Source: Marsupella aquatica
Lineage: Eukaryota > Plantae > Marchantiophyta
Direction of reading: 5' to 3'
DNA length: 64,000 bases
NCBI GenBank assembly: GCA_973895155.1
Contig: OZ316892.1
Coordinates: forward strand, 15,864,861-15,928,860
In this document: piece after piece, positions 14,759-64,000 of the stretch
Layout: each line of letters opens with the position of its first letter
Numbering within the stretch: the stretch's first letter is position 1
The notes under the pieces: generated by a model
Seen by the model: the letters and a program-made list of their open reading frames with translations, nothing else
Told to the model about the DNA's origin: nothing
The model's database searches: none
Position numbers and translations under genes: made by a program

Positions 14759-14826
14759 AAAGTCAAAGTCAAAGTCAAATTCTAAGCTCCACGACGACCC
14801 AATGAGTCAAGGGAGCTGTGGCAAAA
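14759..14826 (-). mobile_element. Short non-LTR element 3' end with (TTTGAC)n tail (family B), head-to-head with the LINE
   Basis: Same sequence at 33272, 37252, 37432 and 39147; AGCTCC/GGAGCT stem. Confidence 0.75.
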
Positions 14827-14834
14827 GTTTAGTT

Positions 14835-16436
14835 TTGTTTGTGGACTTCTCCAAGGCCCTTGACAAAGTTTCCCGATCCAAGCTTTGGGATAGGATGGTG
14901 GAGTTGGAAGTGCCTGAAGAGCTCAGGTTGGCTGTTTCTAAATTGTACCAAGAAGTGCGCATCAAACTTTCAAAGGAAACCTCTGAAGAAATCTGGAGCA
15001 CTCTTGGGGTGATCCAAGGTTGTCCTCTCTCACCAACTCTCTTTGGCATCTTCATTGATCAGCTACACAACATTTTGGAGGAGCATGGTGGAGTTGGCAG
15101 TCAATTGGGTAGGTTTGTCCTCCAACTTCTTATATTTGCAGATGATGTGGTCCTACTTGCTCATGCTCAAGAAGCTTTGCAAAGACATCTCAATGCCTTG
15201 GAGGAGTTTTGTCAAGCAACAGGGATGGTAGTCAACCTCAAGAAGACCAAGTGTTTGGGCATTGGCACACGACAAAATCCAGAGCTCTACTTCCAAGGGA
15301 ATCTGGTGGAATTTGTGAGGACCTACAAATACCTTGGGGTGGAGTTCTCTCAAAACTTGAGTTGGGCCTCATGTGTAAAATCTAGGGCTGCCAATGGGTA
15401 CAGAGCTTTTTATGCATTCATGAACAAATGCAAAAGAGCTGGTCTACACACTTGGAGGTTAAGGAAACATCTCTTTGGAGCTTTGGTGAAACCAGTCATT
15501 CTTTATGGAGCACCAATTTGGGGAGCAGGTGTGTCTAAATCTGGGTGGCAACAGATTGAGGGGCTGCAAAAGCTATTTCTTGAGATGGAGCTTGGGATCA
15601 AGTCACAAACCCCATATGCACTTACACTTGCAGAGGCAGGCTTGTTTCCTTTGGAGGTGGAGGCACTCTTCCACACACTCAAATACATCATGCGTGTAAG
15701 AGAGTTGGAGGAAAACAGATTTCCTTTTCATGCCTTGCGCTCATCTTCAGCTAAAGGGTGGTATGCAGATGTGTGCAGGTGGGCCCATGCTTGGGATTTT
15801 CCTGAACATGAATGGCCAACACACCCAACCAAGCTAAGAGCAAAACTTGAGCAAAAGGCTTTGCACAAACTTTGGCATGAACCTAGCCCACGGCAGCAAT
15901 ACTACATGAGAGATGTGAACCCCATGAAGAAATATTGAGAACAAGAATACTTATCTAGCACTATCTCAGTACAACTTAGACAACTTATTGCTCAGTATAG
16001 ACTAAGCTCACACCACCTTGAAGTAGAACAAGGGAGATGGAAGGATATTGACAGGAAAAAGAGGGTTTGTCAACTATGTGATAGCTCTAGTATAGAGAAT
16101 GAATATCATGTATTCATTGCTTGCAAATTTTATGAGGGGGTTAGGATGGCATCTCAAATCTTGGTGAAAGATTTGTATGCATTGTTTCGTCTGCCCCCTC
16201 AGCAACTTGGAAGATATATCTTTGCGGTGGATAGGGAAAGGAGAATAGGTTTGGAAAATCTTTCAGGGCTCTCTAGGTCCATAGTTTCTTTGAGGACATA
16301 GTTGTCCTCTTCTGAGCAATCTCTTTTGGTTGCTCTTTTCTTTGATTGCATTGTACTTTACTTTTTGTGGCAGCTCCTTTGACTTTCATGGTCCCGAAGC
16401 TTATAATACATTACCATTACCATTACCATTACCATT
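14835..16436 (+). mobile_element. RTEX-like LINE copy A1, 5'-truncated (RT to tail)
   Basis: FVDFSKA, GVIQGCPLSP, FADD, YKYLG; C-terminal RLSSHHLEVEQGRW..CxxC..HxxxxC lies beyond a TGA at 15936; (TTACCA)n tail. Confidence 0.92.
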
Positions 16437-20675: not shown

Positions 20676-21422
20676 TACATCATGCGTGTAAGAGAGTTGG
20701 AGGAAAACAGATTTCCTTTTCATGCCTTGCGCTCATCTTCAGCTAAAGGGTGGTATGCAGATGTGTGCAGGTGGGCCCATGCTTGGGATTTTCCTGAACA
20801 TGAATGGCCAACACACCCAACCAAGCTAAGAGCAAAACTTGAGCAAAAGGCTTTGCACAAACTTTGGCATGAACCTAGCCCACGGCAGCAATACTACATG
20901 AGAGATGTGAACCCCATGAAGAAATATTGAGAACAAGAATACTTATCTAGCACTATCTCAGTACAACTTAGACAACTTATTGCTCAGTATAGACTAAGCT
21001 CACACCACCTTGAAGTAGAACAAGGGAGATGGAAGGATATTGACAGGAAAAAGAGGGTTTGTCAACTATGTGATAGCTCTAGTATAGAGAATGAATATCA
21101 TGTATTCATTGCTTGCAAGTTTTATGAGGGGGTTAGGATGGCATCTCAAATCTTGGTGAAAGATTTGTATGCATTGTTTGGTCTGCCCCCTCAGCAACTT
21201 GGAAGATATATCTTTGCGGTGGATAGGGAAAGGAGAATAGGTTTGGAAAATCTTTCAGGGCTCTCTAGGTCCATAGTTTCTTTGAGGACATAGTTGTCCT
21301 CTTCTGAGCAATCTCTTTTGGTTGCTCTTTTCTTTGATTGCATTGTACTTTACTTTTTGTGGCAGCTCCTTTGACTTTCATGGTCCCGGAGCTTATAATA
21401 CATTACCATTACCATTACCATT
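20676..21422 (+). mobile_element. RTEX-like LINE copy A2, 3' fragment of ~750 bp
   Basis: Near-identical to 15684-16430; (TTACCA)n tail. Confidence 0.93.
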
Positions 21423-23943: not shown

Positions 23944-26900
23944 CACTAGTAGAAACCGGGGGGTATTTAGACCCCATTAAACGACTATTCAGTACCGTAT
24001 AGGACTTGGAAATGACTGGGTAGGACTCCAGTCCTTTATAGAACTATGAGTTGTATATTTTGTTACTATAATCAACTGAGTCCTTTATAGAACTGGTTTA
24101 TAAGTCATTTTATAGACTGGATTTTTAGTCTATTGTAGTCTTTGTGTGGGTAGCTTTGGTGAGTCTTTTTCAGTCTTTTATGGGCTGCGATGGTGAGTCA
24201 TTGGGAACGACTCAAAAGGTTATGGAGGGTAGTCTTTAAGTATACTTTGTGGGTTTATAAAACGACTAAAGTAGACACTTTGTGGGGTATGTATAAGTCT
24301 TTCATGTCAACTGGAAATGAGTGATGAAGACCCCACTATACTACTTGGAATAAACTCACTCTTGTGCACAAATAACACATTCCATTCATGTTTTATTGTG
24401 TACTTGGAATGAACTCACTCTATAAGCTCACCATTCACCATGTTAACATTAGAACCTCACACAAATTTTCAAAAATCTTCTATACCATGTACACTAATAT
24501 GAATTCACAGATTCAAACATCATAGACTACAAAGAAGGTCACAAAACATTCGTCTATACCATACACACTAATACTGAAATGATACAAAACAGATTCAAGT
24601 ATCATAGACAATCACCATAGAGCCATAGTTTGACATCAATCACTTGTTTCATACATACAGAATTCAGAAATATGAATATCACACACAACAGCTCCTTCAT
24701 CCTCTTTACCAAATGGAAAAATTGGTACAGATATTTCTTGGATCTTTCCAAGGCAATGTCAAAATATTACACAATTCACATGATTCTATCTACACTTGCA
24801 TTCAGTCACTACAGACTAACACACTCTGATGGCCAGAGCACAAGAGATCCTACTGCATCTGTAATTATTTCTTGAGGTGGATCATCGTCTCTATTCGGAA
24901 ATGGCAAATTACAATCAGATACAATCACTGTAGTCAACAACACTACTACATGGTCATCCGGGACCACTTTGTCATGGAATTTAGCATGATCCGGTCGCAA
25001 AATGTTTGTACCCACACATACCTGCGAGTCATCCTCCCATGATAGAAGATTATGGACTGGCTCTGCTGTGGCTATCACCTCCACCTTACCCTGGCTGTTT
25101 TTCTTGGCTTTCCTGGGTGGCTTATACATGACATTATTCATACCTTGGTTGCGAGTCATGACTTTGGCACGAGTGTTTTGTGCTGGTGATCGAGAATTGG
25201 CTACACTCTTCTTCAAAGAATCTGCATCCATATTTGACACTTCCGATTGTGTAGCAGGATTTCCCTGCAACATCATCTCAGTATCTGCCAACATAGTACT
25301 TGCTTCAATTGAAGCATCTGTAATCTTACTTGCATCCAATGTTGCTCCCAAGTTTCGACGTCGTTTCACCCTGCTCCCACTTGGTTGAGTCTGTCAACTC
25401 TGCATCAACTACAATTCAGTGCATTGTCCAACATAAGTGAATCACTCATCACATGTGCGCCATGTACATGTCACCAACCACAAAGTTGTCACTATCTCTT
25501 TACCATTATGAACAGCCTTCTTCCCCTTCTTTGCCATTGCCATATCCTCCATGTCTGCTTCTGTTGATCAATAAACACACCACAATATTCAAGTTCAATC
25601 TATTAACCACTGAATTGTTTCTCAACAATGGTAGGAGAGGAATTTAAAGCATCAGCTTACCTGATACCTCCTTGGCTATGGTCACTGAGGCACTGGGCAC
25701 ATCTTTTTCATTGCTCTTTGAATCACCGGATACATCAATCATGATGTCACTTCAGATCCCAATTGATCCAACCAGTTCTTACAGAAAAGATTACCTCCAA
25801 CCGACTTAAGCTTCACAAAACTCCATGCACTTTTCAATGTAATGTATTGGATCATAGCAGGTTACCTGTCTCAGCAACCTTTTTGCCATTCTGCTTACTG
25901 ATTACAAGGTCCTTCTCTGCCTCCACTCTTCCTGCATTCAAACCATTCACTCAATTCATGAAAAATTACTTCTATCATTTGAACATAGGACACAATGAAC
26001 AGTGGGCCGGTGTCATTTCCATACCTGTGTCAGATTTGCCAATTCCCTTTTTTGTTAACAAGGGCACACTTTGTACAATGTTGCCCTCATTGTTTGGTTG
26101 GGAACCACCCAATTTTTCAATCACAAGCTTGAAATTAGATTCCACTGATGCAAGAAGGTTCACTACAGATGCCTCCACAATATCCAAACGATCAGCCAAT
26201 TTACTTTCCACTCGAGGGAGTCCACACTCTAATGACTTCAACTGTTCACACATCTCTGTGAGAGTTGTAACAGTTTCCTGTCATAACATAGCTTACATAT
26301 CTCAGATAATTGTCCCCACGAACTGGTTGCTTACTTCCTATTACAATTCTTTCTGATGCTCAAGGCCAAATAGTCAACATACAGAATTACAACATAATCA
26401 CCTGTTTGGAAGTCACACTTGTCACCTCACTCCTTTGTTTCATGAACTCCTCCCTCACTTCTTGTGCTGATGGTTCTTCACCTGTCAATTTCTTTTGCAG
26501 TCCACATCAACATACATATGAATGAAACCAAGTGTTGATTGTCAATGAAAATGTAATAATGGTAGCAAGATGATAAGTTTGAGGCTTACTATCAGGCATG
26601 TCACTGCCTTACCAATTGTTCTTTCACTGGAGCATAACTTCCTCTCCCAACCTGTGACAGGTGTTTCACTTTGCCTCGAGCATTTGACATCAGTTCACTC
26701 TTGCTCTGCCCAGCCTCCGACATGAACCCTTTGATTAACTGTGTCCATTGATTCAATTCCAATGATGGGGGTGGTGGCATTCTCCTGTTAGAACCATTGT
26801 CTATCCACATCCTTTTCAACCTATGCCTCTCTTGTTTCAAAATCCTCATTGCATAATCTGATATGCAATCTTCAACTGGGCCCTTACCATCATTACCAAC

Positions 26901-28892
26901 ATACTCCCACCGTTCAAGAATGTCCTTGCAGAGAGCAGCCCAATCAACTTTGTTCTGACTCCTAAACTCTGTAATGCTCAAATCTAACCAACGCAATACT
27001 TCTCCTCTTAGGTCATAATGCCAACGTTTCTTACCATCACATGTGGGAGTTATCCAACCATCGGAATTCACTTCTACTTTACCAAATTTGTTACTATCTC
27101 CTGCCTTGGTACTCCCTGAAGCGCTACTAGGTGTCCCTCCACGGCCTGGTGTCCCCCCACGGCCTGGGGTCCCTCCACGGCCTGATCTCCCCCCACGGCC
27201 TGGATTGCATTGTCCAAACCTCCCTGGAGTCCCTGCACATTTACAGGATCCATTAGGTAAGTATGAATCATAAATCCTGCTGCCAAATATACACTGGACT
27301 TCAGAGCAATTCTGCAATGACCAAGTTACCTCTCCCTTGGCGCATAGATGGTTCTGGACCACCTGTCCTATTGCTTTGTCTTGATGAATTAGGGCCATTT
27401 CTCCCGCCTGTGAATGATTGCCTCCTATCTGAACGTGGATGGCCTTTGTTGTTTTCGTGATTGTCCCAATCAGAGTCTGCATACCAATAGGTACATGCCA
27501 CACTCATGGACCTGTAAGATAAACTCTTTGCCCTAGCTACACATCAAATAAGTCCAGATTGAGCTAAATCTCTACTACCATCACAAAATCACTAGCACAA
27601 GGCACTTACTTGTCCAATCATCCTCCTCACCTTTCCATTGCCCTCTGTACCCGTCTCTACCACGCTCTGGGTGTTCATATTCATCCCATCCATCTTCTGC
27701 TCCATCATAGTCATCATCATAATTATCAAGCGTCCCTTGCCAATAACTCTGGCTCCTTCTAGGGTATGGATTATGTGATTTCTCTCTAGCTGCCCACCTA
27801 CCTGGGACTTGATGAGGGCCCTGTGCATCCTGCACAGGTGTATTTTTCTGTGAGCCCCTTGCATCTGGGTCTCCATCCATATCCAATCTTTCCTCTTCAC
27901 CCCACTCTCCAAGCCCATGTCTGTCTCAATGTCATCACCCTCTTCCCCCATAGTTTCTGCACAGCACCCACAACCAAACAGGGAGAATCAGCACACTAAA
28001 TTCAAAGTATCAATCAATTTCATGCATATCCAACTATCCTAAACATCATTCCAGGCAGCAATTCCCATTCTATGACTCTGTGCAGGTAGTCATCCTCAAC
28101 CTCATACTTGCCAATCGCCAGTTGTTGCCTATTGCACATCATCAACCTCATCATATTCCATCTCCCCAGGTTCATCATATGTCTCTCTCAATGTTAAGGG
28201 GATGTAGTCAGTCCCTGCCCGAGTTGGAAGTACAGTCTCGTGACTAGGATGCTCGAATGCAGCATGGTCATCCAAACTGAACTCTACTTTACTTCCATCC
28301 ATCCGCTTGTTCTGTGCTTAGCTATGGCATACCACTCTCCAGCCATGTGACTCCTCCACATCTGCAAAGAAAGCCTGTTCAACTTGGCTAGGGAAAACAA
28401 AAGTCTCAGACCATTCTGGTACTCTGGACCTAAAATTGGCCAACAAGAACCCATCATGATCACGCTTCATGGTGGCCCTTGGTCTCTGCCACTCTGATTT
28501 CACCCATGATCCCTTCATCAATATCACTGGGACACTTGTGTTACCATAATTCAACACCCAAATGTCGGTCAACTCCCCCACGTAACCCATCTTCATCCAC
28601 CCCCTCTGTTCTTCAGAGGTTCTCTGCTCAAACACAGAAATCAAACTACAATCATATGCTACACAATGGTCACCCTGCTCATCCCTCACTCGATAATGAT
28701 TTCCATAAGCTCTCATCCGTTTGTAGGTCAGAATAGACTATCGTGGTGGCACAGATAGAAGATACAAACCCTTCTCCATATCTGGGTGATGTCTACTATG
28801 CTCTCGAATTGTCACCCGAATCCACTGCTCAAACTGTGGGAAGGGATCCTGCTGCCCAAAGTGTGCAGCTTTTTGCATATCATATTCCCTAC
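23944..28892 (-). mobile_element. CACTA/EnSpm transposon, one end plus degenerate TnpD C-terminus and TnpA-like exons
   Basis: TIR CACTAGTAGAAA at 23944 with GACT/AGTC-rich subterminal region; DUF4216-like ORF 28318-28716 (YGNHYRV..YVGELTDIW..FVFPSQVEQAFF..GWRVV); TnpA-like ORFs 26601-27503 and 24809-25369. Confidence 0.85.
27130..27203. repeat. 18-bp tandem repeat (~4 units) coding GRGGTP
   Basis: CCACGGCCTGGTGTCCCC units; only about 2 units in the paralogue near 34195. Confidence 0.85.
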
Positions 28893-31800
28893 AATGGTAA
28901 TGGTAATGGTAATGTATTATAAGCTCCGGGACCATGAAAGTCAAAGGAGTTGCCACAAAAAGTAAAGTACAATGCAATCAAAGAAAAGAGCAACCAAAAG
29001 AGATTGCTCATAAGAGGACAACTATGTCCTCAAAGAAACTATGGACCTAGAGAGCCCTGAAAGATTTTCCAAACCTATTCTCCTTTCCCTATCCACCGCA
29101 AAGATATATCTTCCAAGTTGCTGAGGGGGCAGACCAAACAATGCATACAAATCTTTCACCAAGATTTGAGATGCCATCCTAACCCCCTCATAAAATTTGC
29201 AAGCAATGAATACATGATATTCATTCTCTATACTAGAGCTATCACATAGTTGACAAACCCTCTTTTTCCTGTCAATATCCTTCCATCTCCCTTGTTCTAC
29301 TTCAAGGTGGTGTGAGCTTAGTCTATACTGAGCAATAAGTTGTCTAAGTTGTACTGAGATAGTGCTAGATAAGTATTCTTGTTCTCAATATTTCTTCATG
29401 GGGTTCACATCTCTCATGTAGTATTGCTGCCATGGGCTAGGTTCATGCCAAAGTTTGTGCAAAGCCTTTTGCTCAAGTTTTGCTCTTAGCTTGGTTGGGT
29501 GTGTTGGCCATTCATGTTCAGGAAAATCCCAAGCATGGGCCCACCTGCACACATCTGCATACCACCCTTTAGCTGAAGATGAGCGCAAGGCATGAAAAGG
29601 AAATCTGTTTTCCTCCAACTCTCTTACACGCATGATGTATTTGAGTGTGTGGAAGAGTGCCTCCACCTCCAAAGGAAACAAGCCTGCCTCTGCAAGTGTA
29701 AGTGCATATGGGGTTTGTGACTTGATCCCAAGCTCCATCTCAAGAAATAGCTTTTGCAGCCCCTCAATCTGTTGCCACCCAGATTTAGACACACCTGCTC
29801 CCCAAATTGGTGCTCCATAAAGAATGACTGGTTTCACCAAAGCTCCAAAGAGATGTTTCCTTAACCTCCAAGTGTGTAGACCAGCTCTTTTGCATTTGTT
29901 CATGAATGCATAAAAAGCTCTGTACCCATTGGCAGCCCTAGATTTTACACATGAGGCCCAACTCAAGTTTTGAGAGAACTCCACCCCAAGGTATTTGTAG
30001 GTCCTCACAAATTCCACCAGATTCCCTTGGAAGTAGAGCTCTGGATTTTGTCGTGTGCCAATGCCCAAACACTTGGTCTTCTTGAGGTTGACTACCATCC
30101 CTGTTGCTTGACAAAACTCCTCCAAGGCATTGAGATGTCTTTGCAAAGCTTCTTGAGCATGAGCAAGTAGGACCACATCATCTGCAAATATAAGAAGTTG
30201 GAGGACAAACCTACCCAATTGACTGCCAACTCCACCATGCTCCTCCAAAATGTTGTGTAGCTGATCAATGAAGATGCCAAAGAGAGTTGGTGAGAGAGGA
30301 CAACCTTGGATCACCCCAAGAGTGCTCCAGATTTCTTCAGAGGTTTCCTTTGAAAGTTTGATGCGCACTTCTTGGTACAATTTAGAAACAGCCAACCTGA
30401 GCTCTTCAGGCACTTCCAACTCCACCATCCTATCCCAAAGCTTGGATCGGGAAACTTTGTCAAAGGCCTTGGAGAAGTCCACAAACAAGCAAAATAATGG
30501 TTTATGTGGAGATTTGGCCTTTTCACACAACACCCTCAAGCAGAGAATGTGATCCATAGTGATGAATTCTCTCCTAAAACCTGCTTGTGAAGGTGCCCTT
30601 TTCATCTCACTCTCCAACCAAGAGCTTAATCTGGCTTCAAGTAGTCCTCCCAAAACTTTAGCAAAAGTATTGCCTACCATGATGGTTCTGTAGTTGTGCA
30701 CATCGTCCTTGTTGCCTGCCTTGAAGATAGGCACCACTCTTCTGGTCATCCAAGCTTTAGGTAAACCCAAAGCCATTGCTTGATTCAGCTCATGCACCAA
30801 GTTTGTTAGTAAAGAGGGTCCTCCCCACAAAAGAAGCTCCAAGTTCAAGCCCAACAGATCTTTAGCTTTCCCATGTTGCATGTGGGAAAGATGCACCTTC
30901 ACCTCCCTCTCTGTAAACTGAATGGTGTTGGACAAATTCCATATGTGATTGTTTTGCAGCCTGTGCAAAGGTTTTGAGCTTCTCCTCAATCTCCCCTACA
31001 GCCTCATGTATCACTGATTTCTCTGGGCACATACTCTTCTCCATGTCTCCAAAACACGATGCAAGCAATGAGAGTTGCTTACCATTCTCCTGAGTTTGAG
31101 ATCGAAGATCACTAATCAACCTCTTTTGCTTGACATTCTCATTCTTTAGCTCCGTCACCTCCTTGCTGAGTGTGGTAATCTCAATTGCGGAGTTTTCAGC
31201 CACAACTAAGATTTTCTCAAGCAAAGCCTTGAGATGGGCAATCTCCTCCGTTGCCATCACAAAGCTTTGCTAGTGATACACTCTTGCTGTTTGCAACACT
31301 CTGCCAAAATCTGAGCTCAAGCCGCAGCCGATTGCCCTTCCAACTCGAAGTGAAATTTTGCCCCAAGCTCAGAATCCCGAAACTGGACACGTAGCAGATC
31401 GTGCATGCTAAAGTGCATACCAAACGATGTCGGTTGCAGCTCTAACTTTGCCAGTGATATATTCTCGCTGTTTCCAATGCTCTGGCAAAGTCTGAGCTTA
31501 AACCGCAACCAATTTCCCTTCCAACTTGAAGTGAAATTTCGCCCCAAGCTCAAAATTGCGAAACTGGAGACGTAACAGATCGTGCATGCTAAAGTGCATA
31601 TCAAACGATGTCGGTTGCAGCTCTAATTTTGCCAGTGATACATTCTTGCTGTTTCCAATGCTCTGGCAAAATCTGAGCTCAAACCGCAGCCGATTGCCCT
31701 TCCAACTCGAAGTGAAATTTCGCCCCGACCTCAGAATCGCGAAACTGGAGACGTAACAGATCGCGCATGCTAAAGTGCATACCAAACGATGTCGGTTGCA

Positions 31801-32108
31801 GCTCTAACTTTGCCAGTGATACATTCTCGCTGTTTCCAATGCTCTGGCAAAGTCTGAGCTTAAACCGCAGCCGATTGCCCTTCCAACTCGAAGTGAAATT
31901 TCGCCCCAAGCTTAGAATTGCGAAACTGGAGACGTAACAGATCGCGCATGCTAAAGTGCATACCAAACGATGTCGGTTGCAGCTCTAACTTTGCCAATGA
32001 TAAATTCTTGCTGTTTCCAATGCTCTGGCAAAGTCTGAGCTTAAACCGCAGCCGATTGCCCTTCCAACTCGAAGTGAAATTTCGCCCCGAGCTCAGAATC
32101 GCGAAACT
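28893..32108 (-). mobile_element. RTEX-like LINE copy A3: 5' monomer array, spliced 5' UTR, internal 1751-bp deletion, intact tail
   Basis: Aligns to copy A5; ORF1 is joined to mid-ORF2 at 30928/30929; (TGGTAA)n at 28893. Confidence 0.93.
31264..32108 (-). repeat. 181-bp tandem monomer array (~4.7 units), LINE 5' UTR
   Basis: Period of 181 visible directly and in the repeated ORF offsets 31317/31498/31679. Confidence 0.95.
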
Positions 32109-36600: not shown

Positions 36601-37250
36601 GTTACATTTTGACATTGCCTTGGAAAGATCCAAGAAATACATGTATCAATTTTGAATTTGGTAAAGAGGATGAAAGAATCGTTGTCATTATGTGTGACAT
36701 GTATATTTCTGAATTTTGTGTGTATGTATGAAACAAGTGATTGATGTCAAACTATGGCTCTATGGTGATTGTCTGGATACTTGAATCTATTTTGTATCAT
36801 TTCAGATTAGTGTGTATGATATAGAACAATTATTTATGACCTATCGTGCTGGTCTATGATGTTTGAATCTATCCTTTCATATTAGTGTACATGGTAGAGA
36901 AGAAGGCTTTTTGAAACTCTATGTGTTCTAATGTTAACATGGTGAATGGTGAGTTTATAGAGTGAGTATACACAAAAGAACATGAATGAAATGTGTTATT
37001 TGTGCACAAGAATGAGGTAATATAGCGGGGTCTTCATCACTCATTTCCAGTTGACATGAAAGACTTATACATACCCCACAAAGTATCTCTTTTAGTCTTT
37101 TTATAAACCCACAAAGTATACTTAAAGACTACCAACCACAACCTTTGTAGTCCTTCCCAACGAATAACCACCACAGCCCATAAAAGACTGAAAATGACTC
37201 GCCAAAGAAACCCATACAAAGACTACAATAGACTGGAAATCCAGTCTATT
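33626..37250 (+). mobile_element. Second, diverged copy of the CACTA internal region, inverted relative to 24110-27779
   Basis: Homologous ORFs 33895-34515, 35114-35386, 36020-36565; many substitutions; TIR lost. Confidence 0.9.
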
Positions 37251-37251
37251 A

Positions 37252-37550
37252 AAAGTCAAAGTCAAAGTCAAAGTCAAATTCTAAGCTCCACGACAACCCA
37301 ATGAGTCAAGGGAGCTGTGGCAAAAAAGCCAAATACAAAGCAAAGAAATGATTCAAATGCTCATGTGAGGATCTCTACATCCTCACTAATAACAAACTAA
37401 GGACCTTAAGAGTCACTAATGTGTAATGCTATCAAAGTCAAAGTCAAATTCTAAGCTCCACGACGACCCAATGAGTCAAGGGAGCTGTGGCAAAAAAGCC
37501 AAATACAAAGCAAAGAAATGAGTCAAATGCTCATGTGAGGATCTCTACAT
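37252..37550 (-). mobile_element. Two tandem family B 3' ends (37252-37431 and 37432-37550)
   Basis: Each unit begins with (GTCAAA)n on the plus strand; they have different 5' truncation points. Confidence 0.8.
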
Positions 37551-39138
37551 GGTAATGGTAATGTATTATAAGCTCCGGGACCATGAAAGTCAAAGGAGCT
37601 GCCACAAAAAGTAAAGTACAATGCAATCAAAGAAAAGAGCAACCAAAAGAGATTGCTCAGAAGAGGACAACTATGTCCTCAAAGAAACTATGGACCTAGA
37701 GAGCCCTATGGACCTAGAGAGCCCTGAAAGATTTTCCAAACCTATATCCACCGCAAAGATATATCTTCCAAGTTGCTGAGGGGGCAGACCAAACAATGCA
37801 TACAAATCTTTCACCAAGATTTGAGATGCCATCCTAACCCCCTCATAAAACTTGCAAGCAATGAATACATGATATTCATTCTCTATACTAGAGCTATCAC
37901 ATAGTTGACAAACCCTCTTTTTCCTGTCAATATCCTTCCATCTCCCTTGTTCTACTTCAAGGTGGTGTGAGCTTAGTCTATACTGAGCAATAAGTTGTCT
38001 AAGTTGTATTGAGATAGTGCTAGATAAGTATTCTTGTTCTTGATATTTCTTCATGGGGTTCACATCTCTCATGTAGTATTGCTGCCGTGGGCTAGGTTCA
38101 TGCCAAAGTTTGTGCAAAGCCTTTTGCTCAAGTTTTGCTCTTAGCTTGGTTGGGTGTGTTGGCCATTCATGTTCAGGAAAATCCCAAGCATGGGCCCACC
38201 TGCACACATCTGCATACCACCCTTTAGCTGAAGATGAGCGCAAGGCATGAAAAGGAAATCTGTTTTCCTCCAACTCTCTTACACGCATGATGTATTTGAG
38301 TGTGTGGAAGAGTGCCTCCACCTCCAAAGGGAACAAGCCTGCCTCTGCAAGTGTAAGTGCATATGGGGTTTGTGACTTGATCCCAAGCTCCATCTCAAGA
38401 AATAGATAGCCCCTCAATCTGTTGCCACCCAGATTTAGACACACCTGCTCCCCAAATTGGTGTTCCATAAAGAATGACTGGTTTCACCAAAGCTCCAAAG
38501 AGATGTTTCCTTAACCTCCAAGTATGTAGACCAGCTCTTTTGCATTTGTTCATGAATGCATAAAAAGCTCTGTACCCATTGGCAGCCCTAGATTTTACAC
38601 ATGAGGCCCAACTCAAGTTTTGAGAGAACTCCACCCCAAGGTATTTGTAGGTCCTCACAAATTCCACCAGATTCCCTTGGAAGTAGAGCTCTGGATTTTG
38701 TCGTGTGCCAATGCCCAAACACTTGGTCTTCTTGAGGTTGACTACCATCCCTGTTGCTTGACAAAACTCCTCCAAGGCATTGAGATGTCTTTGCAAAGCT
38801 TCTTGAGCATGAGCAAGTAGGACCACATCATCTGCAAATATAAGAAGTTGGAGGACAAACCTACCCAATTGACTGCCAACTCCACCATGCTCCTCCAAAA
38901 TGTTGTGTAGCTGATCAATGAAGATGCCAAAGAGAGTTGGTGAGAGAGGACAACCTTGGATCACCCCAAGAGTGCTCCAGATTTCTTCAGAGGTTTCCTT
39001 TGAAAGTTTGATGCGCACTTCTTGGTACAATTTAGAAACAGCCAACCTGAGCTCTTCAGGCACTTCCAACTCCACCATCCTATCCCAAAGCTTGGATCGG
39101 GAAACTTTGTCAAAGGCCTTGGAGAAGTCCACAAACAA
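37549..39138 (-). mobile_element. RTEX-like LINE copy A4, 5'-truncated at the same point as A1
   Basis: RT motifs; frameshift near 38405; CAA instead of TGA at 38040-38042; 18-bp duplication near 37690. Confidence 0.92.
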
Positions 39139-44959: not shown

Positions 44960-47581
44960 TCTGTTTTCCTCCAACTCTCTTACACGCATGATGTATTTGA
45001 GTGTGTGGAAGAGTGCCTCCACCTCCAAAGGAAACAAGCCTGCCTCTGCAAGTGTAAGTGCATATGGGGTTTGTGACTTGATCCCAAGCTCCATCTCAAG
45101 AAATAGCTTTTGCAGCCCCTCAATCTGTTGCCACCCAGATTTAGACACACCTGCTCCCCAAATTGGTGTTCCATAAAGAATGACTAGTTTCACCAAAGCT
45201 CCAAAGAGATGTTTCCTTAACCTCCAAGTGTGTAGACCAGCTCTTTTGCATTTGTTCATGAATGCATAAAGAGCTCTGTACCCATTGGCAGCCCTAGATT
45301 TTACACATGAGGCCCAACTCAAGTTTTGAGAGAACTCCACCCCAAGGTATTTGTAGGTCCTCACAAATTCCACCAGATTCCCTTGGAAGTAGAGCTCTGG
45401 ATTTTGTCGTGTGTCGATGCCCAAACACTTGGTCTTCTTGAGGTTGACTACCATCCCTGTTGCTTGACAAAACTCCTCCAAGGCATTGAGATGCCTTTGC
45501 AAAGCTTCTTGAGCATGAGCAAGTAGGACCACATCATCTGCAAATATAAGAAGTTGGAGGACAAACCTACCCAATTGACTGCCAACTCCACCATGCTCCT
45601 CCAAAATGTTGTGTAGCTGATCAATGAAGATGCCAAAGAGAGTTGGTGAGAGAGGACAACCTTGGATCACCCCAAGAGTGCTCCAGATTTCTTCAGAGGT
45701 TTCCTTTGAAAGTTTGATGCGCACTTCTTGGTACAATTTAGAAACAGCCAACCTGAGCTCTTCAGGCACTTCCAACTCCACCATCCTATCCCAAAGCTTG
45801 GATCGGGAAACTTTGTCAAAGGCCTTGGAGAAGTCCACAAACAAGCAAAATAATGGTTTATGTGAAGATTTGGCCTTTTCACACAACACCCTCAAGCAGA
45901 GAATGTGATCCATAGTGCTGAATTCTCTCCTAAAACCTGCTTGTGAAGGTGCCCTTTTCATCTCACTCTCCAACCAAGAGCTTAATCTGGCTTCAAGTAG
46001 TCCTCCCAAAACTTTAGCAAAAGTATTGCCTACCATGATGGTTCTGTAGTTGTGCACATCGTCCTTGTTGCCTGCCTTGAAAATAGGCACCACTCTTCTG
46101 GTCATCCAAGCTTTAGGTAAACCTAAAGCCATTGCTTGATTCAGCTCATGCACCAAGTTTGTTAGTAAAGAGGGTCCTCCCCACAAAAGAAGCTCCAAGT
46201 TCAGGCCCAACAGATCTTTAGCTTTCCCATGTTGCATGTGGGAAAGATGCACCTTCACCTCCCTCTCTGTAAACTGAATGGTGTCCCCAAGGGGCAAAGG
46301 CATGCCACTAGCATCTGGAAAGAAATACAAGGATGTGACATAGGTTACCAGGTCCTGGTGATCCAAGGGGGGAGTAGTCTTGCCTGATTGCATTCTCTCC
46401 CAAAAACGTTTTGGATGTTTGATGAACTCCTCACATAGTGATTGTTGATGACTCTTCAAGAAGCACCTCTTCTTGTGTTTGATGAAGTTCTTGTACATAG
46501 TGAATGCCAAAAGTCTCTTTTCCCCTAAATGTGATCTTGCTTGCATCCTTGCTCTAGCACAATCCTCGTCAAACCAAGCCTTCATGTTTTGCTTTCTAGG
46601 GGGTTTGGTGGAGAAAGTAGAGGCTGCTGCTTGTGCTATGACTTCTGAGAGCTCAATTTGATCATCCAGGGTATGGAGAAGATGTTCAAAGTTGGCTTTG
46701 AAGATGACTTCTCTATCAGGGTCTAGAAACAGAGGTTTGGGTACTGGCTTTCTATGCACTTTGTTTGGGATTGTGGTCAGGTCAAGATGGAACAACAAAG
46801 GCAAGTGTGAAGACTCTGGTTGTTGATCAAGTATTTGAAAGTCAACCACTCTAGTGGCAGAGGTAGGTGAGGCAAGAAGGTAATCAATGGTACTACATTC
46901 TTGTTTAGATCTAAAAGTGTAACCAGATGATTGGGGAAATCTCTCAAGCCCATTCAATATTCTTAGATTACAAGAAGCTCCCAAATGCAAAAAGTGACGT
47001 GTCATGTCATTTGTTCTGGTGTCAAGAGCCTCTCTCACCCAAGGTATCTCTTCACTACATGATGACCAAGGTAAAGTTCCTAAGTCCTCACTTTCAGTAA
47101 ATTGTTCATTAGATACCCTGGCATTAAAGTCCCCCACTATCCATGTCTCCCCTAGTGGTGATATATCATGAATGACTTGGATTAACCTATGAAATGGATA
47201 ATGTGCATCAGCAATTCCCATCTTATAGACATTCATATTAAGGGGAGCAAAGTAGGTGACAATCAGAAATGATGGAGTACCTCTGGTATGAAGTCTCACC
47301 ACCATGAACTGCTTGCTGGGATCTTCATGTTCAATAGAGGTGATGTGTTGAAGTTGATTCTTGGTGTAGACAGCAATGCCTCCAAACCCTCTTCCCCGTG
47401 TGGTCTTCTTCTCATTGAAGATGGATTGTATGCAAGTAAAGCCTTTAATGCTAGGTAGAGCATTTCCCTCATATTCCCAAGTCTCCGTGAAAAGCAAGAT
47501 GTCAAAATTCTCAAACAAAGGTTCCCCTCCAATTGCTGTTTCTATGGAAAGTCCTGAAACATTCCATGCCATGACTCTCAA
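44960..47581 (-). CDS. LINE ORF2 (AP endonuclease + reverse transcriptase), 3'-truncated
   Basis: WNVSGL, ETW, GGIAVY, VGDFNAR, TIDY, SSHLP; QAGFR, FVDFSKAFD, QGCPLSP, FADD. Confidence 0.92.
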
Positions 47582-47593
47582 GGTCCCGATCCA

Positions 47594-48364
47594 TCATTTA
47601 GAAACAACTCTCTTCTTATTGGTAACAACAGCTTGTCCATTGCGCAAGTAGGCTACCAATCCTTGGTCTTTGGCTACCCTCACCTTCTCAAGCTCAATTT
47701 TCCTTGCTTGGACTTGTGTGGGAGTCAGATCATCATCCAACCAAATCCTTAGCCCTTTAAGCATGCTCCTGTTAGCCATCACTCTAGCTTTCTCGGATTC
47801 AACTGCAAACTTCACCAAGATTGGACGTGGAAGGTCCCCCTTCTTTTGCCCAATCCTATATGCTTGCAAAATGATAGGGTCATGCACTTTCATCTGAGAT
47901 TGGAAGAATGAAATTGCTACCTTCTTGGTGTCTTCCTTCTCCTCCTCAACAAGGCCTGATATTTTGCAGTTGCCGACTCTTGCATGCTGGTTCTTGTGTT
48001 CTTCCTCTAGTGCTCTCCTCTCCTCCTCCTTGGCTTGGACAAATTCCATATGTGATTGTTTTGCAGCCTATGCAAAGGTTTTGAGCTTCTCCTCAATCTC
48101 CCCTACAGCCTCATGTATCACTGATTTCTCTGGGCACATACTCTTCTCCATGTCTCCAAAACACGATGCAAGCAATGAGAGTTGCTTACCATTCTCCTGA
48201 GTTTGAGATCGAAGATCACTAATCAACCTCTTTTGCTTGACATTCTCATTCTTTAGCTCCGTCACCTCCTTGTTGAGTGTGGTAATCTCAATTGCGAAGT
48301 TTTCAGCCACAACTAAGATTTTCTCAAGCAAAGCCTTGAGATGGGCAATCTCCTCCGTTGCCAT
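47594..48364 (-). pseudogene. LINE ORF1 (coiled coil + RRM-like, ~256 aa) with an internal TAG at 48068
   Basis: ISGL.E, RIG..PRPILVKF, IWLDDDLT; the codon is CAG in copy A3. Confidence 0.85.
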
Positions 48365-48371
48365 CACAAAG

Positions 48372-48449
48372 CTGAAACTGTTGTTAGAATGTACTCTTAG
48401 ACGACAAATAGAAATTGGGAGCAGTAGAGGATGTCAGTTGCAGCTCTAC
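48372..48449 (-). other. 78-nt spliceosomal intron in the LINE 5' UTR
   Basis: AAAG|GTAGAG...TTCTAAC...TTTCAG|CTTTGTGATG; exactly absent at 31264/31265 in A3. Confidence 0.88.
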
Positions 48450-49201
48450 CTTTGCCAGTGATACACTCTCGCTGTTTGCAACACTCTACCCAAATCTGAG
48501 CTCAAACCGCAGCCGATTGCCCTTCCAACTCGAAGTGAAATTTTGCCCCAAACTCAGAATCCCGAAACTGGAGACGTAGCAGATCGCACATGCTAAAGTG
48601 CATACCAAACGATGTCGGTTGCAGCTCTAACTTTGCCAGTGATACATTCTCGCTGTTTCCAATGCTCTGGCAAAGTCTGAGCTTAAACCGCAGCCAATTT
48701 CCCTTCCAACTCGAAGTGAAATTTCGCCCCAAGCTCATAATTGTGAAACTGGATACGTAACAGATCGTGCATGCTAAAGTGCATATCAAGCGATGTCGGT
48801 TGCAGCTCTAACTTTGCCAGTGATACATTCTTGCTGTTTCCAATGCTCTGGCAAAATCTGAGCTCAAACCACAGCCGATTGCCCTTCTAACTCGAAGTGA
48901 AATTTCGTCCCGAGCTCAGAATCGCGAAACTGGAGACGTAGCAGATCGTGCATGCTAAAGTGCATACCAAACGATGTCGGTTGCAGCTCTAACTTTGCCA
49001 GTGATACATTCTTGCTGTTTCCAATGCTCTGGCAAAATCTGAGCTCAAACCGCAGCCGATTGCCCTTCTAACTCGAAGTGAAATTTCGCCCCGAGCTCAG
49101 AATCGCGAAACTGGAGACGTAGCAGATCGCGCATGCTAAAGTGGATACCAAACGATGTCGGTTGCAGCTCTAACTTTGCCAGTGATACATTCTTGCTGTT
49201 T
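48430..49201 (-). repeat. 181-bp tandem monomer array (~4.3 units)
   Basis: Same unit as 31264-32108. Confidence 0.95.
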
Positions 49202-53189: not shown

Positions 53190-54833
53190 TCATGGCAAAC
53201 TACAGATGCCATTTAGACTAAAGAATGCACCCGTCTTCTTTCAATGGGTGATGGATCAAGTACTAGAAGGTGTTGATTTACTCAAATGCTACATTGATGA
53301 TGTGTTAGTTCATAGCAAGGGTTTTGAGCAACACTTATTACATCTTGAAGAGTTGTTCAGGAGGCTGAGAAATGTTAATATGAAGATCCATCCCAAGAAG
53401 TGTGAGTTTGCTGTTACCTCAGTGGTTTACCTTGGGCATCGAATCATTCCAAATGGCACTATGGCTCATTGGGCTAAAGTGGTCTCTATTCTTGAGATGC
53501 CCAAGCCTACTGATACTCACACTTTGCGAAGCTTCATTGGTCTATGTAATTACTACAGAATTTTCATCTAGGACTTTAGCATCATTGCTCACCCATTGTA
53601 CATGTTGCTTAAGAAGGATGTTACCTGGAAATGGACTGAAGACACTCAGGTGGCATTTGAAACTTTGAAGGGAAAGTTATCAACTTACCCTGTTCTCAGA
53701 AGGCCTGATTTCAGCAAAACATTCATTTTGCATATAGATTGGAGTGCTCTAGGTATTGGTGCCATTCTGGGTCAATCTGATGGGGACGGGCGGGAGTATG
53801 TCATTGCTTATGCGTCTAGGAGCAATACCAAGGCTGAGAGCAACTACTCCTCTTATGAAAGCGAATGCTTGGCTGTTGTGTGGGCTGTCATACATTTCAG
53901 ACCCTACCTGTATGGCACTAAGTTCATGCTCTTTACCGATCACCAGCCACTGAAGTGGTTGATGACCAATGATAAGCTTACCGGCAAGCTAGCTCATTGG
54001 GCCCTCATTTTGCAAGAATATGAGTTTGAAGTTATTCATAGACCTGGAATTACTCACCAGAATGCTGACACCATGTCTCGCAGTCCTTTGATCACTTCAA
54101 CAATTTTTTTAGATGCACGACAAGATTTTGATCATGCTAGTCCTAGCTCTACACTTGGGGCCTCTGCCTATCTTGCCTTGCTTTGTTGCAACGTTGTTGA
54201 CCAACCAATTGTGGACATCTGGGAGGATTTGGACACTCTGAATTTCTTGCAGCATAGGCAGTACCCACCAGGCATGACCACTACTCAAAGGGATCAGATA
54301 CAACAATGGTCTAAGCGTTACATGTGGAAGGGAGATCACCTAGTCCGCTGTTTGCCACAAGGGGAGAGAGTGGTTCCACCAATTGCTGATAGGGCTGGCT
54401 TGGTCAGAAAAGTACATTCTGAACTTGGGCATTTTGGAATCAAGCGTACTTATAGTTTGATGGTTCCTCACTACCATTGGAAGGGGATGCATACTCAGAT
54501 TTGGGATATCATAGCTAGGTGTGAACAGACAGAGTAAGAACCTCATTCTCCTCTCGACAACCTATACTTCATCCACTCCCTATTCAGGGATTGTTTTACC
54601 GCTGGTCTTGTGATTTAGCTAGAGAATTACCTTTGACATCCAGGGGTAACCTCTATATAATGATCATGATTGAACACTTTTCTAAGTGGATTGAATTGGT
54701 TGCCTTGCCTGATAAGAGTTCACATAGCACTAGCCAAGCTTTTCTCCAGCAAGTGCTTAGCAGGTTTGGGGCTTGTGCAAAGTGCCTCACTGACCAGGGT
54801 TCTGAATTCAGAGGAGAATTTCAGGACCTACTT
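53190..54833 (+). pseudogene. Gypsy pol fragment: RT, RNase H, integrase N-half
   Basis: MPFRLKNAP, YIDDVL, DWS..GIGAIL, IAYASR, FTDHQPL, HSELGHFG, LTDQGSEF. Confidence 0.93.
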
Positions 54834-62039: not shown

Positions 62040-64000
62040 GAAAAGATGCACTTATGGAGTTGGACACCAAATTTAGGGCAAAGATTTAAATTTTGTGTGC
62101 CATTCCTAAGAAGGAATTTAGATAACTCCTCATGGCTCATATGCGGGGACTGGAACATGATTGAGAGGTGGGACGTTGCGGTTGGATCCAGTGCTCTCAT
62201 ACACGGCATGGAAGCTAGAAAATGGCACAAGTTGGTGGAGCATCTGGACCTTGTTGATAATTACCTTTGCGCTGGGGCACAAATGGGACCCAAGTACACC
62301 CGACAATCTACTCACGCCCACAGGCTTGACCAATCCAGACTTGGATCAATCATACAACAGCAATAGCAATGATTGGTGTGAGTTTGTAAGAAGTTGCAAA
62401 CACGATGGGAAGGAAACTCTCTCAGATCACATCTATGTTCTCACCACCTTTGTTCTTAAGCTTAGGGAGCCCACCGGGCCACAGAGAAAGTCAACATACT
62501 TCAAAATGGATGCCTCCTTGATTGATTCCCAGGAAATTGAGCTATTAGTGTGTGCAGCATGGGCTGAGCAAATGACCAAGACAAGGGACCCTTGGGTGAA
62601 TTGGGACCTTGCTTGGGGTGTGGTCAAAAAGCCTACAAGGTGAAACTCGCAAGAGAGAAGATCAAAGGAAGTTTTCACACATAGGGAATTATCTGCAAGA
62701 GCTTCGTATTGCTGCGGGCACAACACAGAGCGGGGACCTCATACAGAAGCTGCAACGAGAAGAAGAGAGGACACAACAACAAGGGCTAGAGGAAGCAAGG
62801 AGATTGAAGATGAGGAGTCGGGCTCGATGGCTACAACTTGGCGAGGCCCCGACCAAGTATTTCTTCAATTAGCTTAGGCCAAACACGCCCGTGAAAGCAT
62901 CAAGACATTGAAGATGTCTAATGGGGAATTGTGCGAGGATGAGGACCTAATCTTATAGGAAATCTCTAAATTTTACACGGGGCTGTATCAAAAAGACAAA
63001 GTTGTGCAAGACCACCTGGAACTGCAAGGGGATGTGCTCGATCTCATTACTGCAAAGGTTAATGGGGAAGACAACACAGCGCTGAGATGTCCACCTAGAG
63101 AGGAGGAAATTGAAAAGGTAATTAGTGAACTTCCTAAAGAAAAAGCTCCAAAAATCAATGGCATCACTGCTGAAGTACTACAAAAAGGGTGGGATTTCAT
63201 GAAACCGGCATGCCTGGCCATGATACATGCTTTCTGGGTGGATGACAAACTCACCTTGAAGGCCACTGCCGATGTCATCAAGCTGATCCCAAGATCAGGA
63301 GGTCACTGAGCTCAGCAATTGGAAGCCGCTGACCATGCTCACACTCACAGAAAAGATCATCGCCAAACTACTTGCCAATCGAATGAAGAAAGTAGTCAGT
63401 AAGTTGGTCGACCCTCAGCAGACAGGATTCCTTGAAGGGCGTGATATCCTTGATAATTTGATGACCCTGGATATGGGTAGAGAAATGGCCAATCGTTCCA
63501 AGCAAGAAATTATTTTCCTTAAACTAGATTTTGCAAAAGCTTACGATAGGGTAGCACATTCTTTTCTTTGGGCCATCATGAAAGCCATGAATGTTGATGA
63601 TAAGGTCATTAGCTTGACTCAGGGTTTGGTGATTGATATGCAATCCAAGGTCCACATTAACAGGCATTTCACCGGACCTATCATGCTTGGCAGGGGAGTA
63701 CGACAGGGATGCCCCCTGTCCTTGATTCTTTTCACTCTGACAACTCAACCCTTGATGCTGCTGCTTAAGAAGTGACTGGATGCAGGACAACTGAAAGGGA
63801 TGGCCCTGCCAGATGGGAGCAAGCTTTGCAACCAGTTATTTGCTAACGATACAGGCCTTTTTCTAACAGCTACTGAAGAAGAGTTCAATACTGCATGCGA
63901 CACTATTCTTTTGTACGAGAAGATCTCTGGGGCCATGTTGAACATTCATAAATCCCGGATTGTTCCCCTATACCTTGTAGGGGAAGTTTATCCGGACTGG
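62040..64000 (+). pseudogene. L1-clade LINE ORF2 (APE + RT), frameshifted, runs off the window
   Basis: WLICGDWNM, LSDH, RARWLQLGEAPTKYFF, QTGFLEGRDILDN, KLDFAKAYDRV, GVRQGCPLS. Confidence 0.9.

What the first reader, a model, noticed from the sequence alone, without database searches (positions are those of the whole stretch)
48364..48449. A LINE with its own 5'-UTR intron, present here in both unspliced and spliced form
Seen: A5 has AAAG|GTAGAG..TTCTAAC..TTTCAG|CTTTGTGATG, a 78-nt intron ending 7 nt before the ORF1 ATG. A3 reads AAAG|CTTTGTGATG at 31264/31265, lacking exactly the intron. The donor lies in the last monomer, where AAAGTTAGAG has become AAAGGTAGAG. Known: retroposition removes introns, and spliced integrants exist for human L1. 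Inference: the family makes two RNAs, perhaps spliced for translation and unspliced as the template, which is unusual for a plant LINE.
Basis: partly seen in the sequence, partly recalled or inferred. Interest (0 to 1): 0.85.

Follow-up and report, generated by a model that had tools for sequence, protein, structure and literature searches.

The report
Plant LINE with partly spliced leader
A jumping gene (LINE) from what is likely a liverwort carries a 78-base piece with intron borders just before its first gene, and about a quarter of its copies in related samples lack exactly that piece, likely because spliced RNA was copied back into the genome, roughly ten times as often as is known for human LINE-1.

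Summary
Observation confirmed. Copy A5 holds a 78-nt GT..AG stretch (48449-48372, minus strand) ending 7 nt before the ORF1 ATG; copy A3 lacks exactly it. The donor is a T>G variant found only in the last 181-bp monomer (8 of 8 upstream monomers have T), so A3 is the derived form. The loss is not a one-off: the same joint stands in 3 of 4 deep public runs (likely DNA, two organism labels, two studies) at 23-26% of the depth, against about 2% for human SpIREs. Three non-canonical deletions in this family are each single-locus. A random deletion gives GT..AG 0.5% of the time. Best reading: a weak spliceosomal 5'-UTR intron, partly spliced, with both RNAs used as templates. No RNA was available, and whether the intron-less copies arose repeatedly or from one spliced source is open. 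Known kind (SpIREs, Penelope's 75-bp intron); new here are the host, the frequency and the intact promoter repeats.

The parts
48372..48449 (-). 78-nt intron-like stretch, GT..AG; first 20 nt are the end of the last monomer, last 58 nt are unique in the window; 59% A+T, no ATG; branch-like A at 48384 (CTAAC) and 48397 (CTAAG)
48430..49201 (-). A5 5' array of 181-bp monomers (4.3 copies); likely internal promoter (inferred, untested); donor G only in the last monomer 48430-48610
47594..48364 (-). A5 ORF1, 256 codons, coiled coil plus RRM/CTD-like part; premature stop at 48068-48070 that A3 and the laid runs do not share
44960..47572 (-). A5 ORF2 (APE endonuclease + reverse transcriptase), broken off at 44960; in frame with ORF1 behind one stop
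28893..32108 (-). Copy A3: 4.7 monomers, no intron, 5' part of ORF1, internal deletion, 3' part of ORF2, (CATTAC)n tail
31264..31265 (-). Exact exon-exon-like junction in A3
30927..30928 (-). Second junction in A3: about 1,750 nt (A5 46285-48034) missing, 1-nt microhomology, ends not GT-AG or GC-AG
14835..16430 (+). A1, 5'-truncated copy of the same LINE (no information on the intron)
20676..21422 (+). A2, 5'-truncated copy
37549..39138 (-). A4, 5'-truncated copy, part of an inverted duplicate of the A1 region

Best explanation
This young LINE family has a 78-nt GT..AG stretch between its last promoter-like repeat and ORF1 that is missing, base for base, from about a quarter of its 5'-intact copies, most likely because it is a weak spliceosomal intron that the host removes from a minority of transcripts, after which both RNA forms would be reverse-transcribed into new sites. 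Shown: the two DNA forms, the direction (loss), the many-copy status. Inferred: transcription from the monomers, splicing, and that intron-less copies arise again and again from intron-bearing sources, as human SpIREs do. Unlike SpIREs, the splice leaves the upstream monomers and ORF1 intact, so the spliced copies need not be dead.
For: Exact GT..AG ends with AAG| and TTTCAG| context; 0.5% chance for GT..AG alone. Donor only in the last monomer, 8 of 8 others have T; the monomer continues into the intron, so A3 is a loss. Joint 48371->48450 in X1, X2, X4 at depth 170.5, 336.4, 1001.8 beside intron-holding contigs at 495.4, 962.3, 3395.3 = 25.6, 25.9, 22.8%; the two branches add up to the shared ORF1 contig (666 vs 626 in X1, 1299 vs 1267 in X2). 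These runs lack A5's private letters (48070, 48488, 48491, 48552 all read as in A3), so they are likely not the window's source. The 136-nt intron contig is the length expected of a simple bubble with 30-nt flanks shared by both forms, and X1 shows no listed ORF-region variant near 25%, so no marker ties the intron-less copies together. The three non-canonical deletions seen (A3's 1.75 kb; 141 nt at depth 33.7 in X2; 250 nt at 16.2 in X3) each occur once. No predicted stem joins the ends (pair probability 0.0). Precedent: SpIREs (PMC5860796), Penelope intron (PMC2377424).
Against: No RNA evidence at all. The family is so homogeneous (A3 vs A5: 3 differences in 337 nt of ORF1, 11 in 1,325 of ORF2) that one spliced source could have made all intron-less copies without leaving markers; tables were cut (38 variant rows not shown) and X1 has three short uncovered gaps. 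The joint is absent from X3 (57% read) and from 4 of 4 shallow runs. The donor is weak at +4 to +6 and the best branch motif is close to the acceptor (consensus recalled). There is a 2-nt AG microhomology, and A3 shows that this family also suffers splice-independent deletions. The kind of runs X1-X4 is not on record (DNA inferred). Relative L001 shows no homologous intron.
Confidence: 0.55

Rival explanations
1. Splicing happened once or a few times, and a spliced copy, which keeps its monomers and both ORFs, became an active source that made the other intron-less copies (an intron-less subfamily).
For: The splice removes only 20 nt of the last monomer and leaves four monomers and ORF1 intact. 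The share is nearly the same in all three runs (23-26%), as a shared ancestral subfamily would give. A1, A2 and A3 share a premature ORF2 stop that A4 lacks, so A3 belongs to a marked sub-lineage. A3's fourth monomer differs in type from A5's.
Against: No linked variant within 30 nt of the joint or in X1's ORF1/ORF2 contigs among the rows shown. An equally fit intron-less source could never regain the intron and should replace the intron-bearing form, yet that form holds about 75%.
Confidence: 0.3
2. The 78 nt were lost by a reverse-transcriptase jump or DNA repair at the 2-nt AG microhomology, the ends look like an intron by chance, and the deleted copy was then amplified.
For: AG stands at both ends (both = 2). 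A3 has a second, non-canonical deletion with 1-nt microhomology, and two more such deletions stand in X2 and X3.
Against: Only 403 of 29,161 microhomology deletions (1.4%) are GT..AG and 11 match the fuller pattern. The deletion starts at the single AG|GT of the leader. No hairpin joins the ends; fold z-scores -0.73 to 0.66. It also needs a second event (amplification).
Confidence: 0.07
3. One reading: the element needs two RNAs, a spliced one for translation and an unspliced one as template, and the intron is kept by selection (as proposed for Penelope).
For: The intron ends 7 nt before the ATG, like many host 5'-UTR introns (recalled). Only the last monomer has a donor, which avoids splicing out monomers. 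In Penelope an intron-less construct makes RNA but no protein (PMC2377424, passages). The intron-bearing form persists at about 75%.
Against: A quarter of templates were spliced. No ATG in the intron and no upstream ORF crossing it. With cis-preference as in L1 (PMC5860796 section 17) the translated RNA is the template, so the unspliced RNA must be translatable. No evidence that the intron is old: the other runs hold near-identical copies and L001 lacks it.
Confidence: 0.08

Closest known systems
SpIREs of human LINE-1, intra-5'UTR class (Larson et al. 2018, PMC5860796; abstract, section 7 and first part of section 17 read)
   Same: LINE copies lacking an exact GT-AG piece of the 5' UTR, ORF1 start intact, beside a majority of unspliced copies.
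   Different: Share 23-26% here against 131 of 6,609 (about 2%). Intron 78 nt against several hundred. The human splice removes promoter elements and makes dead ends; here the upstream monomers stay. Non-mammalian, liverwort-like host; splicing shown by RT-PCR there, not here.
Penelope of Drosophila virilis, 75-bp 5'-UTR intron (Schostak et al. 2008, PMC2377424, passages) and Chlamys-3_cRei of Chlamydomonas (Craig et al. 2021, PMC8557442, passages)
   Same: Short intron in the leader, overlapping the promoter region, kept through retrotransposition; spliced and unspliced RNAs both exist.
   Different: Penelope-like elements use a GIY-YIG endonuclease and terminal repeats; this element has APE + RT and a microsatellite tail. 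Penelope's genomic copies keep the intron; here a quarter have lost it.
LINE/RTE-X of Marchantia (bioRxiv 10.1101/827881, three passages)
   Same: Liverwort LINEs that cluster; nearest named relatives of ORF2 are Calypogeia fissa (64%) and Riccia sorocarpa (up to 52%) proteins with clustered locus tags.
   Different: No labelled RTE-X sequence was on hand, so clade membership is not shown; the passages read say nothing of introns.
Zebrafish LINE with functional splice sites (Tamura et al. 2007; seen only as a title in reference lists)
   Same: A non-mammalian LINE with working splice sites.
   Different: Text not held; details not compared.

Membership tests
APE-type LINE (non-LTR retrotransposon) | ORF2 with APE endonuclease followed by reverse transcriptase | tested here: met
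   Pfam Exo_endo_phos E 5.8e-10 and RVT_1 E 3.6e-31
APE-type LINE (non-LTR retrotransposon) | Common 3' end with simple-repeat tail and variable 5' truncation | tested here: met
   4 of 5 copies end in (CATTAC)n, A5 has lost its 3' end; different 5' ends
APE-type LINE (non-LTR retrotransposon) | ORF1 of coiled coil + RRM + CTD type | tested here: inconclusive
   Model of a relative (pLDDT 76.7) has that layout; human L1 ORF1p ranks 1-4 in Foldseek but E only 0.038-0.13; no Pfam family
APE-type LINE (non-LTR retrotransposon) | Target-site duplication | tested here: inconclusive
   No shared flank word above 5 nt for A3; A5 lacks its 3' end
SpIRE (spliced integrated retrotransposed element) | Copy lacks a piece bounded exactly by GT and AG of the full element | tested here: met
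SpIRE (spliced integrated retrotransposed element) | Several genomic copies with the same junction | tested here: met
   Joint at 23-26% of depth in 3 of 4 deep runs plus A3; roughly 10 copies in X2 if its 33.7-depth contig is single-locus
SpIRE (spliced integrated retrotransposed element) | Same splice shown in RNA | not testable with these tools
   No RNA holder listed
SpIRE (spliced integrated retrotransposed element) | Independent origins across the family tree; spliced copies are dead ends | tested here: inconclusive
   No linked marker seen but no genome held; monomers and ORF1 survive the splice
U2 spliceosomal intron | GT donor, YAG acceptor, branch motif, U/A-rich body | tested here: met
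   AAG|GTAGAG, TTTCAG|C, CTAAC (-13) and CTAAG (-26), 59% A+T against 52% in the upstream exon; consensus recalled, no host-trained model
RTE-X (RTEX) clade | RT phylogeny with labelled RTE-X references | not testable with these tools
   No labelled reference held; the C-terminal R-L-S-S-H-H...Cys/His motif fits RTE-X from recall only
Penelope-like element | GIY-YIG endonuclease and pseudo-LTRs | tested here: not met
   APE + RT, two ORFs, tandem monomers instead; the likeness is functional only
Introner or other inserted element | The intron is an insertion into an intron-less ancestor | tested here: not met
   Its first 20 nt are the regular end of every monomer, so the short form is a loss

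The most novel reading that the evidence does not exclude
A true LINE that depends on its own leader intron: splicing (or the intron DNA) is needed for expression, so the many spliced copies, though they keep promoter repeats and reading frames, are dead ends, and the family lives in a steady balance in which a quarter of its offspring lose the intron. It would be the LINE counterpart of Penelope and a natural test of how a retroelement keeps an intron.
Probability: 0.2. Interest if true: 0.72.

Novelty: new variant of a known kind. Interest (0 to 1): 0.47.

Why it matters
Retrotransposition erases introns, so a LINE that keeps one in most copies while losing it in a quarter poses a clear question: is the intron new and on its way out, or needed? 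Here the two forms differ only by the intron and keep promoter repeats and ORF1, which makes a clean pair for testing intron-dependent expression in a liverwort-type host, and a genomic read-out of germ-line splicing efficiency. It extends SpIRE-type elements to a plant LINE at about ten times the human frequency. If it is only a young cryptic splice site, it is a tidy example of a known process.

Tried and rejected
No own genome is held, so copies could not be counted or put on a tree. No RNA holder listed; this says nothing on expression. Shallow runs X5-X8 (1, 7, 3 and 1 contigs laid, depth 2-69) hold near-identical pieces: intron-side sequence in X5 and X6, joint in 0 of 4; too thin to test conservation. 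DNA and protein scans for relatives with a leader: 0 in metagenome contigs by pattern, 1 locus by ORF1 (L001), 0 in prokaryote and viral contigs; the 15-mer scan gave 120 hits, none a relative (longest alignment 44 nt at 77%). L001's 278-nt leader shares only a 23-nt and an 11-nt patch and no clear intron. Hairpin-jump idea: by eye the intron ends and the exon ends are complementary, but folding gives them pair probability 0.0 and no significant z-score; rejected. Donor hidden in a local hairpin: partly paired in the model, z not significant; a lead only. uORF removal as the purpose: rejected. Insertion (introner) reading: rejected. VIA-align search matched only coiled coils. Protein atlas did not answer. 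Print searches for an intron-bearing or spliced plant LINE: searches gave 0 papers; searches listed none on it (listings only; passages of PMC12477816, PMC3880073, PMC5753468, PMC12026185 were not relevant). Subscription journals and Repbase entries are not covered, and three papers asked for were not held; no supplements were read.

Full report
The element. The window holds five copies (A1-A5) of one LINE within 36 kb. A5 (minus strand, 49201-44960) has 4.3 tandem monomers of 181 bp, a 256-codon ORF1 and an ORF2 with APE endonuclease and reverse transcriptase, broken off at 44960. A3 (32108-28893) has 4.7 monomers and the (CATTAC)n tail shared with A1, A2 and A4. The nearest named relatives are liverwort proteins: Calypogeia fissa at 77% and 70% for the ORF1 C-terminal half and 64% for ORF2, Riccia sorocarpa up to 52%. 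The host is therefore likely a liverwort (inference). The clade is probably RTE-X by a recalled C-terminal motif; this was not tested. A model of a relative's ORF1 shows coiled coil, RRM-like and CTD-like parts, with human L1 ORF1p as top but weak match (E 0.038).

The observation. It is as described. The 78 nt from 48449 to 48372 start GT, end TTTCAG and stop 7 nt before the ORF1 ATG; A3 joins AAAG to CTTTGTG ATG at 31265/31264. The first 20 nt of the piece are the normal end of a monomer, so A3 is a loss and the piece is no insertion. All 8 upstream monomers have T where A5's last monomer has the donor G, and this is the only AG|GT in the 837-nt leader. Of 430,260 possible 60-200-nt deletions in A5, 2,188 (0.5%) are GT..AG; of 29,161 with 2 nt or more of microhomology, 403 (1.4%); 11 match the fuller splice pattern, which I chose after seeing the site. 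Weak points: donor positions +4 to +6 are off the recalled consensus, and the best branch motif lies only 13 nt from the end, a second at 26.

One deletion or many copies? No genome is held, so I used public runs. Of 12 listed runs none is on record as RNA; I laid 8. In the four deep runs (two organism labels, two studies) the exact joint 48371->48450 stands in X1, X2 and X4, not in X3, of which 57% was read. Its depth against the intron-holding contig is 170.5/495.4, 336.4/962.3 and 1001.8/3395.3, that is 25.6, 25.9 and 22.8% intron-less. The two branches add up to the shared ORF1 contig in X1 (666 vs 626) and X2 (1299 vs 1267), so the shares are sound there; X4's intron contig is only a part. 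If the 33.7-depth deletion contig in X2 is a single locus, this is roughly 10 intron-less and 29 intron-bearing copies (one contig, rough). The run kind is not on record; flat depth, contigs that run into unique flanks and GATC-type loose ends point to DNA (inference). The runs lack A5's private letters and A3's large deletion, so they are likely other samples than the window's source. The four shallow runs show intron-side sequence in two and the joint in none; they are too thin to count. By contrast, the three non-canonical deletions seen in this family (A3's 1.75 kb, 141 nt in X2, 250 nt in X3) each appear once, at low depth.

How it most likely works. Shown: two DNA forms, loss as the direction, many intron-less copies. 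Inferred: transcription starts in the monomers (both long copies begin four or more monomers upstream); the host spliceosome removes the 78 nt from a minority of RNAs; both RNAs are reverse-transcribed. I give repeated splicing 0.55, one spliced copy that became a source 0.30, splice-independent deletion 0.07 and a needed two-RNA scheme 0.08; so splicing as the origin stands at about 0.9. For repeated origin: the 136-nt intron contig is the length of a simple bubble with shared 30-nt flanks, and X1's listed ORF-region differences are all fixed against A5, none near 25% (one of X1's 19 variant places was not shown and three short gaps are uncovered). Against: the family is very young (3 differences in 337 nt of ORF1, 11 in 1,325 nt of ORF2 between A3 and A5), so a clade could lack markers; A1, A2 and A3 share an ORF2 stop, a sign of sub-lineages; and the splice leaves promoter repeats and ORF1 intact. 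A hairpin-skipping model has no support from folding.

Spliced RNA evidently served as template; the intron has no ATG, and all upstream ORFs end before it, the last at 48502. What remains open is a ratchet: an intron lost from a quarter of offspring and never regained should vanish unless it is young or useful. A single T>G change in the last monomer fits 'young'; a donor only in the last monomer fits either. I could not date it: other runs hold near-identical copies and the one relative with a leader, L001, has a different 5' region.

Comparison. It works like the intra-5'UTR SpIREs of human L1, which are 131 of 6,609 full-length copies (about 2%) and lose promoter elements (PMC5860796; abstract, section 7, first part of section 17). 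Here the share is ten times higher and the monomers stay. The closest model for a needed intron is Penelope's 75-bp leader intron, whose removal abolishes protein but not RNA (PMC2377424, passages), echoed in Chlamys-3_cRei (PMC8557442, passages); the element is no Penelope-like element. A zebrafish LINE with working splice sites is known to me only from a title. My searches of open literature found no report for a plant LINE, which does not cover subscription journals or Repbase. Earlier notes of this scan list like cases in a fungus and in mammals (unchecked), and none for this family; this lowers the surprise.

Verdict. Real feature, very likely splicing-derived, a new variant of a known kind: interest 0.47; 0.72 if the intron proves to be needed (probability 0.2).

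Noticed in passing
window 47572-47596 (-) and L001:1008-1050: ORF2 is in frame with ORF1 behind a single TGA; the seven codons before ORF2's first ATG read WIGTLRV here and WVGTLRI in relative L001 and include the start of the endonuclease's first motif. Readthrough or an unusual re-start is possible.
   Followed up: partly
window 29385-29387 (-) and the same site in A1, A2, A4: Three separate insertions (A1, A2, A3) share a premature ORF2 stop about 120 codons before the end, ahead of the Cys/His motif; A4 has a sense codon although it is a duplicate of A1's locus. Suggests a defective local source plus gene conversion.
   Followed up: partly
window 13029-16423 vs 40944-37549; 24108-27778 vs 37253-33626: Two inverted duplications (98.5% and 89.5%); the first includes the A1/A4 insertion, with 6 differences in 1,806 nt of flank.
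   Followed up: partly
window 37200-37550 and just upstream of 14835 / 39138: 3' ends of a second LINE-like family with a (GACTTT)n tail and a similar terminal motif, in tandem behind A4 and in opposite orientation at the 5' junction of A1/A4.
   Followed up: no
window 14835-49201: Five copies in 36 kb among other transposon remains; Riccia relatives carry clustered locus tags and Marchantia RTE-X gather at centromeres. The 181-bp monomer is of nucleosome-repeat size; a centromere link is a guess.
   Followed up: no
runs X2 and X4, laid at 47467-47800: Contigs about 88-90% alike point to a sister subfamily in organism B; whether it has the intron is unknown.
   Followed up: no
window 48430-49201 and 31265-32108 (-): Each monomer holds short upstream ORFs (29-33 codons and a 6-codon one); A5's last monomer lacks the ATG of the 6-codon ORF next to the donor.
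   Followed up: partly
window 62161-63775 (+), 53572-54537 (+): Remains of another LINE (endonuclease/RT) and of an LTR-element RNase H/integrase region, named from the translations by eye.
   Followed up: no
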